Below the pieces are notes generated by a model. That model was not told the origin of the DNA and made no database searches. It worked only from the letters and a program-made list of their open reading frames with translations. This document shows, one piece after another, positions 34,631 to 35,146 of a DNA stretch of 35,146 nucleotides. The translations under genes and the position numbers were made by a program. Positions within the stretch are counted from its first letter, which is position 1, and every line of letters starts with the position of its first letter. Origin of the DNA: a virus (lineage: Duplodnaviria > Heunggongvirae > Uroviricota > Caudoviricetes); IMG/VR virus record IMGVR_UViG_2909309443_000004; one strand, 5' to 3'.

Positions 34631-35146
34631 TTAGCTCTTTTCAGGACATTTGGTATTTGGCTGAATACGCGTTTCGTTATACGTCGTGGTAATAACAACG
34701 GCTAAACCTGTCGTAAACTGGCACTCTTTACCCACCTGGGTAGAGGTATACACTTTGGTGCCTTCCTAATAGGTTAAAGAAACACCTTCCACTAAGGTTT
34801 TATCATTCACCATAGAACCCGCTGCCGCGCCTACAGCTCCGCCGCCAACTGCACCTGCCGTCGTTCCGGAATTGCTGCCAGACCCGACGTTGTGGCCGAT
34901 AACACCGCCAGCGACTGCGCCAATAAGCGCGCCGAAGGCTTGTGCGTTCCGTTTATTTTGGGAGTTGTCTACGGCAACTTTTGCGGGAAGAATGGAAATA
35001 ATATTAACGGTTTTAGTTTCTTGTTTGGTATTCAGTTGATCGGTTTGATAAACATCGGCGGCATGATCGTCAGCATTTGACTGGCATCCTGCCAGAGTGA
35101 ATGACGCTAACATTGCTACAGGCAGAAGACATTTTTTAAATTTCAT
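34631..35146 (-). pseudogene. Glycine-zipper lipoprotein (SlyB/YcfJ-like) with in-frame TAG at 34766-34768; reading frame continues 43 codons to TAA at 34631
   Basis: ORF 34766..35146: lipobox LAGC, glycine zipper GALIGAVAGGVIGHNVGSG...; after the TAG the frame stays open (EGTKVYTSTQVGKECQFTTGLAVVITTTYNETRIQPNTKCPEKS) and ends right at the RBS of the downstream gene. Confidence 0.45.

What the first reader, a model, noticed from the sequence alone, without database searches (positions are those of the whole stretch)
34631..35146. Flanking glycine-zipper lipoprotein gene carries an in-frame amber codon
The lipoprotein ORF stops at TAG (34766-34768), but the same frame stays open for 43 more protein-like codons and ends at a TAA immediately before the AGGAGG RBS of the downstream gene. 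That is the arrangement expected for an originally ~170-aa protein (YcfJ/SlyB-like) inactivated or truncated by a nonsense mutation, or a sequencing error.
Basis: seen in the sequence. Interest (0 to 1): 0.4.

Follow-up and report, generated by a model that had tools for sequence, protein, structure and literature searches.

The report
Nonsense-mutated yfgH lipoprotein pseudogene
The E. coli outer-membrane lipoprotein gene yfgH next to a prophage carries one real, inherited base change that turns a conserved lysine codon into a stop; this is an ordinary strain-lineage pseudogene that public annotation already flags.

Summary
The gene lies on the minus strand and is E. coli yfgH, a SlyB-like glycine-zipper outer-membrane lipoprotein of 172 aa. 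Its only difference from the intact allele is an A-to-T change (plus-strand T-to-A at window 34768). This converts the family-invariant Lys128 codon AAG into TAG. The 44 following codons (not 43) are the unchanged 3' end of yfgH, ending at TAA just before the yfgI ribosome-binding site.

It is not a sequencing error. The same allele occurs in 6 of 5,426 complete E. coli genomes, from human isolates (four recorded as diarrhoeal stool) from Bangladesh, Nepal and Indonesia. It also occurs in many independent draft, read-derived and metagenome assemblies, in three different neighbouring contexts. RefSeq already marks it "pseudogene, internal stop".

No amber suppressor was found. The window has no tRNA, strain E8 has wild-type glnV/glnX and tyrT/tyrV, and no carrier has a supF, tyrU, serU, leuX or trpT amber allele.

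The stop removes 45 residues that hold 21 of the family's 54 invariant positions, two cysteines and the last β-strands of the periplasmic domain. Loss of function is therefore the best reading. The mutation lies about 780 bp from the prophage attachment site and is unrelated to it. Other E. coli carry independent yfgH knock-outs. The finding is ordinary and of low interest.

The parts
34766..35146 (-). 5' part of yfgH up to and including the premature TAG. It encodes 126 aa from the ATG at 35146, or 127 aa from the annotated GTG 3 nt outside the window. This part holds the signal peptide, the lipobox LAGC, the first β-strand and the 2TM glycine zipper.
   Evidence: Pfam PF05433 scores 34 bits against a cut-off of 24.2 on residues 72-113. 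RefSeq annotates yfgH as a pseudogene with an 'internal stop' in strain E8.
34766..34768 (-). Premature amber codon TAG replacing AAG. This is Lys128 in 172-aa numbering, or codon 127 from the ATG. The changed base is window 34768: plus strand A here, T in intact alleles.
   Evidence: It is the only mismatch in the alignment with intact yfgH of strain L73 and of strain E70. Lys128 is invariant in 26 family members from several genera.
34631..34765 (-). Untranslated 3' remnant of yfgH: 44 sense codons (34634-34765) and the original TAA stop (34631-34633). It would encode EGTKVYTSTQVGKECQFTTGLAVVITTTYNETRIQPNTKCPEKS.
   Evidence: The stretch is identical to intact alleles. The tail holds 21 of the 54 invariant family columns, including Cys143 and Cys168. 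It aligns to SlyB residues about 118-154.
34620..34625 (-). AGGAGG ribosome-binding site of yfgI, 4 nt before its ATG and 5 nt after the yfgH TAA.
   Evidence: Read directly from the sequence.
34076..34615 (-). yfgI (179 aa, DUF5384), the intact downstream gene. It may be exposed to transcriptional polarity from the premature stop.
   Evidence: Pfam PF17358 E = 7.5e-62. Annotation. No σ70-like promoter was found between 33900 and 35146.
34008..34035 (.). Hairpin terminator shared by the converging guaA/prophage and yfgI transcription units.
   Evidence: The same sequence is present in the empty guaA-yfgI site of strain E54.
33969..33985 (+). attR core (ATTGAGTGGGAATGATT) of the prophage. It marks the end of the mobile element, about 780 bp from the TAG.
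   Evidence: Comparison of occupied (E8 and the window) and empty (E54) sites.

Best explanation
The feature is a lineage-specific null, or at least severely crippled, allele of the chromosomal gene yfgH. One A-to-T transversion changed the invariant Lys128 codon (AAG) to amber (TAG).

Translation therefore ends after residue 127. The product keeps the signal peptide, lipobox, first β-strand and the two-helix glycine zipper. It lacks the last 45 residues, which form the closing β-strands of the SlyB-like periplasmic domain and contain both conserved cysteines.

- Shown: the identity of the gene, the single-base cause, the inheritance of the allele in a geographically spread set of human E. coli isolates (four of the six recorded as diarrhoeal stool), and the absence of the classical amber suppressors.
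- Inferred: the truncated lipoprotein cannot fold or oligomerise properly and is probably degraded, so these strains behave like yfgH mutants. Published work describes such mutants as less tolerant of outer-membrane stress such as SDS/EDTA or impaired LPS and OMP assembly.
- Inferred: 132 nt of newly untranslated mRNA in front of yfgI may reduce yfgI expression through loss of coupling or Rho polarity.

The mutation has nothing to do with the neighbouring prophage.
For: - **Single-base cause.** The window differs from intact yfgH by one base, giving TAG instead of AAG. E70 has the wild-type base.
- **Rarity in complete genomes.** The exact 61-mer with TAG is in 6 of 5,426 complete genomes, while 3,298 genomes have the one-mismatch form.
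- **Existing annotation.** RefSeq marks the gene 'internal stop' in all six carriers.
- **Independent assemblies.** The exact 126/127-aa product is recorded on more than 100 contigs and in 182 blocks of public assemblies. These include Illumina drafts, a read-derived Logan assembly and a metagenome scaffold, in three different contexts at the guaA-yfgI site. All are identical over the 1,071 bp of yfgH-yfgI.
- **Orthologue length and conservation.** Relatives are 168-174 aa. Lys128 and 20 further tail positions are invariant.
- **Structure.** YfgH aligns with SlyB (7OJF) over residues 8-164. The AF2 model's only significant PDB match is SlyB, with TM 0.51/0.60. In that model the stop falls inside strand 117-129 and removes strands 132-139, 148-154 and 160-162.
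- **Suppressors.** The window has no tRNA. E8 has glnV/glnX CTG and tyrT/tyrV GTA. No genome carries tyrT/tyrV, tyrU, trpT or leuX amber alleles, and only DSM 498 carries the serU one.
- **Function.** Deletion of yfgH gives SDS+EDTA sensitivity and outer-membrane permeability (bioRxiv 10.64898/2025.12.22.696046). yfgH shows an aggravating interaction with lptD (PMC3219608).
Against: - No expression or protein data exist for this allele. The retained lipobox plus glycine zipper could in principle still insert in the membrane and keep some activity.
- The AF2 model has low confidence (mean pLDDT 55), so the strand boundaries are approximate.
- The allele has spread over three countries, so any fitness cost in nature must be small.
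- supE was checked directly only in E8, not in the other five carriers. The window's own strain differs from E8 by 3 SNPs and was not itself identified.
- A polar effect on yfgI is pure inference.
Confidence: 0.88

Rival explanations
1. The truncated YfgH (mature residues 22-127: lipid anchor, one β-strand and the 2TM glycine zipper) is stable and keeps partial, altered or dominant-negative activity. On this reading the allele is a functional variant rather than a null.
For: The Pfam glycine-zipper domain is complete and scores above its cut-off in the 126-aa product. The allele persists in isolates from three countries and in many assemblies. No further decay has accumulated in the remnant.
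Against: The removed tail is the densest block of invariant residues in the family, with 21 of 54 including two cysteines. It corresponds to the strands that complete the SlyB-type periplasmic domain. Independent frameshift and IS1 alleles that destroy the gene more thoroughly also circulate, which fits dispensability rather than a special truncated function. The lack of decay is equally explained by a young mutation.
Confidence: 0.08
2. The TAG is read through, by an amber suppressor tRNA or by natural readthrough, so that full-length YfgH is still made in useful amounts.
For: The downstream frame is perfectly intact. Not every possible suppressor was tested; multi-step or acquired tRNAs elsewhere in the genome were not, and supE was checked directly only in E8.
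Against: The window has no tRNA gene. E8 has glnV/glnX with CTG and tyrT/tyrV with GTA. None of the 5,426 genomes has tyrT/tyrV, tyrU, trpT or leuX with a CTA anticodon, and the serU-CTA allele is only in DSM 498. All 60 listed records of the 155 carrying the supE allele are K-12-type laboratory strains. By general knowledge, unsuppressed UAG readthrough in E. coli is of the order of a percent or less.
Confidence: 0.02
3. The TAG is a sequencing or assembly error, and the strain really has an intact yfgH.
For: A single-base difference is the kind of change an error could produce.
Against: The same base is present in unrelated assemblies made with other methods: GCA_000356705.1, GCA_002484655.1, GCA_009867675.1, a Logan assembly of SRR10680482 and an ENA metagenome scaffold. 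The truncated protein has many separate NCBI accessions. The site is not in a homopolymer or in a Dam/Dcm motif.
Confidence: 0.02

Closest known systems
Intact E. coli YfgH (WP_001295476.1; 172-aa outer-membrane glycine-zipper lipoprotein)
   Same: It is the same gene at the same locus (pdeF-yfgG-yfgH-yfgI-guaA). 518 of 519 nt are identical, and the lipobox, glycine zipper and downstream yfgI are the same.
   Different: Codon 128 is TAG instead of AAG, so the product stops at residue 127 and lacks the conserved C-terminal 45 residues. RefSeq calls it a pseudogene.
SlyB (PDB 7OJF/7OJG), the PhoPQ-regulated lipoprotein that forms rings around outer-membrane proteins and lipid nanodomains
   Same: The architecture matches: lipid anchor, β-strand, two-helix glycine-zipper hairpin and a C-terminal β-strand periplasmic domain. 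Sequence alignment covers YfgH 8-164 (E = 3.9e-10), and the fold match has TM 0.51-0.60.
   Different: It is a paralogue, not an orthologue (24% identity in the fold alignment). According to the 2025 preprint it has different genetic suppressors (clsA versus the Mla pathway). SlyB lacks the two conserved cysteines of the YfgH tail.
Other natural yfgH knock-out alleles in E. coli
   Same: They target the same gene and have the same likely consequence. One is an IS1 insertion with a 9-bp target duplication in strain E70. Another is a +T frameshift giving ...EGVFFNL* in 9 complete records.
   Different: They are different mutational events in different strains. The allele here is a clean nonsense substitution that leaves the remnant otherwise intact.

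Membership tests
SlyB-like glycine-zipper 2TM outer-membrane lipoproteins (YfgH orthologue group) | Signal peptide ending in a lipobox with the lipidated cysteine | tested here: met
   MKFKKCLLPVAMLASFTLAGC, with LAGC followed by Q. Cys22 is invariant in 26 relatives. The lipoprotein prediction and outer-membrane localisation of YfgH are reported in the preprint.
SlyB-like glycine-zipper 2TM outer-membrane lipoproteins (YfgH orthologue group) | Glycine zipper 2TM domain (Pfam PF05433) above the gathering score | tested here: met
   The truncated product scores 34.0 bits and the full-length protein 33.2 bits, against a cut-off of 24.2.
SlyB-like glycine-zipper 2TM outer-membrane lipoproteins (YfgH orthologue group) | Complete C-terminal β-strand periplasmic domain, with the conserved YK..K..TSTQVG..C.F..G.A....T..NETR.QPN..C tail | tested here: not met
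   The tail is still encoded in the DNA but lies after the TAG. The translated product ends at Tyr127. The locus is therefore a yfgH pseudogene rather than a functional family member.
SlyB-like glycine-zipper 2TM outer-membrane lipoproteins (YfgH orthologue group) | Conserved chromosomal position between yfgG/pdeF and yfgI/guaA | tested here: met
   Annotated neighbourhoods in E8, L73, E54, E1739, E1316, E1648 and E1654.
SlyB-like glycine-zipper 2TM outer-membrane lipoproteins (YfgH orthologue group) | Ring-shaped oligomers in the outer membrane | not testable with these tools
   This is solved only for SlyB and only predicted for YfgH by AF3 in the preprint.
Pseudogene by nonsense mutation | A single substitution relative to intact alleles creates the stop, and the sequence after it remains homologous to the intact gene | tested here: met
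   One mismatch in 519 nt, and the remnant is identical in all carriers.
Pseudogene by nonsense mutation | The stop is reproducible in independent sequencing and so is not an artefact | tested here: met
   Six complete genomes plus draft, Logan and metagenome assemblies.
Pseudogene by nonsense mutation | No cognate suppressor tRNA in the strain | tested here: inconclusive
   All single-step E. coli amber-suppressor alleles were negative in carriers where they could be checked. supE was checked directly only in E8, and whole genomes were not scanned for acquired tRNAs.

The most novel reading that the evidence does not exclude
Loss of YfgH may be adaptive rather than neutral in some human-associated E. 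coli lineages, including diarrhoeal isolates. The evidence is at least three independent knock-out alleles: K128amber in isolates from Bangladesh, Nepal and Indonesia, an IS1 insertion in a Bangladeshi isolate that carries the same prophage, and a +T frameshift five codons upstream in other human isolates. A looser outer membrane might favour vesicle-mediated toxin release, or might remove a target of a phage, bacteriocin or host factor. Alternatively, the anchor-plus-zipper stub may act on its own. The evidence here does not exclude this, but three alleles among about 5,400 genomes is within what a dispensable gene would show.
Probability: 0.06. Interest if true: 0.45.

Novelty: already known. 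Interest (0 to 1): 0.08.

Why it matters
It matters little in general. It shows that a recently characterised outer-membrane stress protein, YfgH, is dispensable in a naturally circulating E. coli lineage from humans, mostly from diarrhoeal stool. It also provides a ready-made natural null allele, plus two other independent ones, for anyone testing YfgH function or its epistasis with clsA in wild strains. For genome annotation, it confirms that the RefSeq 'internal stop' flag is correct and that the feature is not linked to the adjacent prophage.

Tried and rejected
- **Sequencing error.** Rejected because the allele is identical in many independent assemblies.
- **Link to prophage integration.** Rejected for three reasons. 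The att core lies at 33969-33985, about 780 bp away. Five of the six TAG genomes have an empty guaA-yfgI site. Many prophage-bearing strains, such as the O6:H16 isolates, have intact yfgH.
- **Amber suppression.** The window has no tRNA. The supE allele was found in 155 records, and all 60 of those listed are K-12-type laboratory strains. E8's glnV/glnX are wild type. No tyrT/tyrV, tyrU or trpT amber alleles occur anywhere. serU-CTA occurs only in DSM 498.
  - My first leuX query turned out to have the leuZ backbone and was uninformative. The corrected leuX query found no full-length match.
- **Compensating clsA loss** (clsA mutations suppress ΔyfgH in the preprint). E8's cls gene is full length, with protein accession WP_000214516.1 and no pseudogene flag, so there is no sign of it.
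- **NCBIfam.** It has no YfgH model. Only sub-threshold hits to YiaD and PRK11280 appeared.
- **The product name 'outer membrane lipoprotein' as a marker of pseudogenes.** It is not; it is just the newer PGAP name and is also used for intact copies.
- **Rfam.** Nothing in the window reached a gathering score.
- **Literature search for the strain names.** It found nothing relevant, so the enterotoxigenic pathotype of the carriers remains my inference from strain names, sources and O6:H16 relatives.

Full report
**1. The observation**

The feature lies on the minus strand.

- An ORF starts at ATG 35146-35144 and runs through 126 sense codons to TAG at 34768-34766.
- It ends at TAA 34633-34631, followed by a second in-frame TAA at 34630-34628.
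- AGGAGG lies at 34625-34620, and the ATG of the next gene is at 34615.

The window ends exactly on the ATG. RefSeq annotates a GTG start 3 nt further upstream, so the intact protein is 172 aa. I use that numbering below.

Forty-four stop-free codons after a stop would occur by chance about 12% of the time ((61/64)^44). The open frame alone is therefore not evidence; the comparison with other genomes is.

**2. What the gene is**

The stretch 34560-35146 matches 5,420 of 5,426 complete E. coli genomes, where it is annotated yfgH followed by yfgI. An alignment with intact yfgH of strain L73 shows one difference in 519 nt: TAG instead of AAG at codon 128. On the plus strand this is A instead of T at window 34768.

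Pfam finds the glycine-zipper 2TM domain (PF05433) above its cut-off in both the truncated and the full-length product. It finds nothing in the 44-residue tail alone. The downstream gene is DUF5384 (yfgI).

YfgH aligns with the solved structure of SlyB (7OJF/7OJG) over residues 8-164 (E = 3.9e-10). It aligns more weakly with TraT.

**3. The mutation is real and inherited**

The exact 61-mer around the TAG occurs in six complete genomes: E8, E54 and E1739 from Bangladesh, E1316 from Nepal, and E1648 and E1654 from Indonesia. All are from humans, and four are recorded as diarrhoeal stool. A further 3,298 genomes carry the one-mismatch version. RefSeq flags yfgH as a pseudogene with an 'internal stop' in all six.

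The exact 126- and 127-aa products are also present in the large protein collection, on 104 and 19 contigs respectively, with several NCBI accessions. The gene index lists the 126-aa product in 182 blocks of assemblies. These include older drafts, a Logan assembly built directly from reads, and a metagenome scaffold.

In all loci fetched, the 1,071 bp spanning yfgH and yfgI are identical to the window. The one exception is a yfgI missense change in E54, and by protein accession also in E1316. A sequencing artefact is therefore excluded.

The window itself differs from E8 by 3 SNPs in 35,146 bp, so it comes from E8's immediate relatives.

**4. No relation to the prophage**

Window 1-33985 is a prophage integrated into the 3' end of guaA. 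Comparing the empty site (E54) with the occupied site gives a 17-bp core, ATTGAGTGGGAATGATT, with attR at 33969-33985. That is about 780 bp from the TAG.

- Five of the six TAG genomes have the empty site, and only E8 has the prophage.
- In other assemblies the TAG allele sits next to a different island.
- Conversely, strains with the identical prophage junction, such as the O6:H16 isolates, differ from the window by a single base over 587 bp, and RefSeq annotates their yfgH under an intact protein name.

**4a. Suppressor tRNA check**

- The window encodes no tRNA.
- In E8, glnV/glnX have anticodon CTG and tyrT/tyrV have GTA.
- I searched amber-suppressor versions of each tRNA against all complete genomes. 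No genome carries tyrT/tyrV-CTA, tyrU-CTA, trpT-CTA or full-length leuX-CTA.
- serU-CTA occurs only in DSM 498.
- The supE allele occurs in 155 records, and all 60 of those listed are K-12-type laboratory strains.
- One query used the wrong tRNA-Leu backbone and is disregarded.
- Acquired or multi-step suppressors elsewhere in the genomes were not scanned.

**5. Consequence for the protein**

Homologues found in the 5.8-billion-protein search are overwhelmingly 168-174 aa. In an alignment of 26 members from Escherichia, Enterobacter, Serratia, Pantoea, Xenorhabdus and others, Lys128 is invariant. The 45 residues lost contain 21 of the 54 invariant columns, including Cys143 and Cys168.

An AlphaFold2 model built on that alignment has low confidence overall (mean pLDDT 55, with the best values of about 75 in residues 120-150). 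Its only significant PDB match is SlyB (E = 1.1e-6, TM 0.51/0.60). In the model the order of elements is:

- strand 44-61;
- helices 63-87 and 93-112, which form the zipper hairpin;
- strands 117-129, 132-139, 148-154 and 160-162.

The stop falls inside the first post-zipper strand and removes the other three. I infer that the periplasmic domain cannot form and that the protein is non-functional or degraded. This step is inference, not demonstration.

**5a. Function of the intact protein (literature)**

A 2025 preprint (10.64898/2025.12.22.696046) reports the following:

- YfgH is an outer-membrane lipoprotein.
- ΔyfgH cells are sensitive to SDS+EDTA and more permeable to NPN.
- yfgH is induced when lpxC, lptD or bamA are depleted.
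- clsA mutations suppress the defect.
- AF3 predicts SlyB-like rings.

Babu et al. 2011 (PMC3219608) found aggravating interactions of yfgH with lptD, and vancomycin sensitivity. The carrier lineage is therefore expected to tolerate outer-membrane stress somewhat less well. E8's clsA is full length and not flagged, so there is no sign of the known suppressor route.

**5b. Possible effect on yfgI**

The premature stop leaves 132 nt of untranslated mRNA immediately upstream of the yfgI ribosome-binding site. No σ70-like promoter was detected in 33900-35146. Reduced yfgI expression through loss of translational coupling or Rho polarity is possible but untested.

**6. Comparison, novelty and verdict**

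This is yfgH carrying a nonsense mutation. The gene, its family and even this pseudogene call are already in public annotation.

Other independent knock-outs exist:

- An IS1 insertion with a 9-bp duplication, at the position equivalent to window 34990-34998, in strain E70. E70 has the wild-type AAG and the same prophage.
- A +T frameshift five codons upstream (...EGVFFNL*) in nine complete records.
- Several odd-length forms in the protein collection.

This suggests that yfgH is dispensable in nature. Three alleles among about 5,400 genomes is not obviously more than expected for a non-essential gene, so I do not claim selection.

The finding is ordinary and its interest is low.

Noticed in passing
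window 1-33985 (attR core 33969-33985); attL lies 190 nt before the window start in E8 (L003): The rest of the window is a prophage whose gene names (capsid staple gp10, Bbp16/Bbp19-like capsid proteins, S74 tail fibre, GH19 endolysin) recall ε15/phiV10; I did not test that relationship. It is integrated in the 3' end of guaA with a 17-bp core, ATTGAGTGGGAATGATT. The prophage-yfgI junction is present in 187 complete E. coli genomes.
   Followed up: partly
window ~11223-14748: The prophage's major capsid gene is split by an ISEc23 (IS66-family) element: tnpA 12086-12511, tnpB 12508-12858 and the transposase 12889-14502. A tail gene (~16562-18733) and a DUF1064 gene (8211-8333) are also remnants. 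The prophage is therefore defective. Coordinates were converted from the E8 annotation.
   Followed up: partly
window 6801-6932: Three adjacent tandem-repeat arrays (periods 18, 24 and 12) lie inside the replication-initiator-like gene. They look like iterons of a lambda-type origin.
   Followed up: no
L005 (strain E70), equivalent to window 34990-34998: There is an independent yfgH inactivation by a 768-bp IS1 with a 9-bp target duplication (GAATGGAAA). The strain is a Bangladeshi diarrhoeal isolate that has the same prophage and the wild-type AAG codon.
   Followed up: yes
yfgH codon ~123, equivalent to window ~34779-34783: A separate +T frameshift allele (product ...EGVFFNL*, also 126 aa) occurs in 9 complete E. 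coli records: H1827/12, E100341, AST19, AST205 and five EC0026B derivatives. It is also on 172 contigs of the protein collection.
   Followed up: yes
L010 and L012, downstream of yfgI: In some assemblies that carry the TAG allele, the guaA-yfgI site holds a different island encoding a HEPN_LA2681-domain protein and a ptaRNA1-family toxin. The site therefore appears to be an integration hot spot with at least three occupancy states within one allele lineage.
   Followed up: no
L006 (E54) and L014 (E1316), yfgI: Two of the TAG carriers additionally have a yfgI variant (protein WP_179146030.1). The underlying change, seen directly in E54, is C-to-T at position 719 of the yfgH-yfgI stretch.
   Followed up: no
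L013 47613-49018 (strain E8): The outer-membrane chitoporin gene chiP is also a pseudogene (frameshift and internal stop) in E8. The lineage has thus lost more than one outer-membrane protein gene.
   Followed up: no
window ~27030-27924, minus strand: A TacA-family antitoxin-like gene overlaps the start of a BRO-N domain gene in the prophage accessory region, and no TacT-like toxin is annotated beside it.
   Followed up: no
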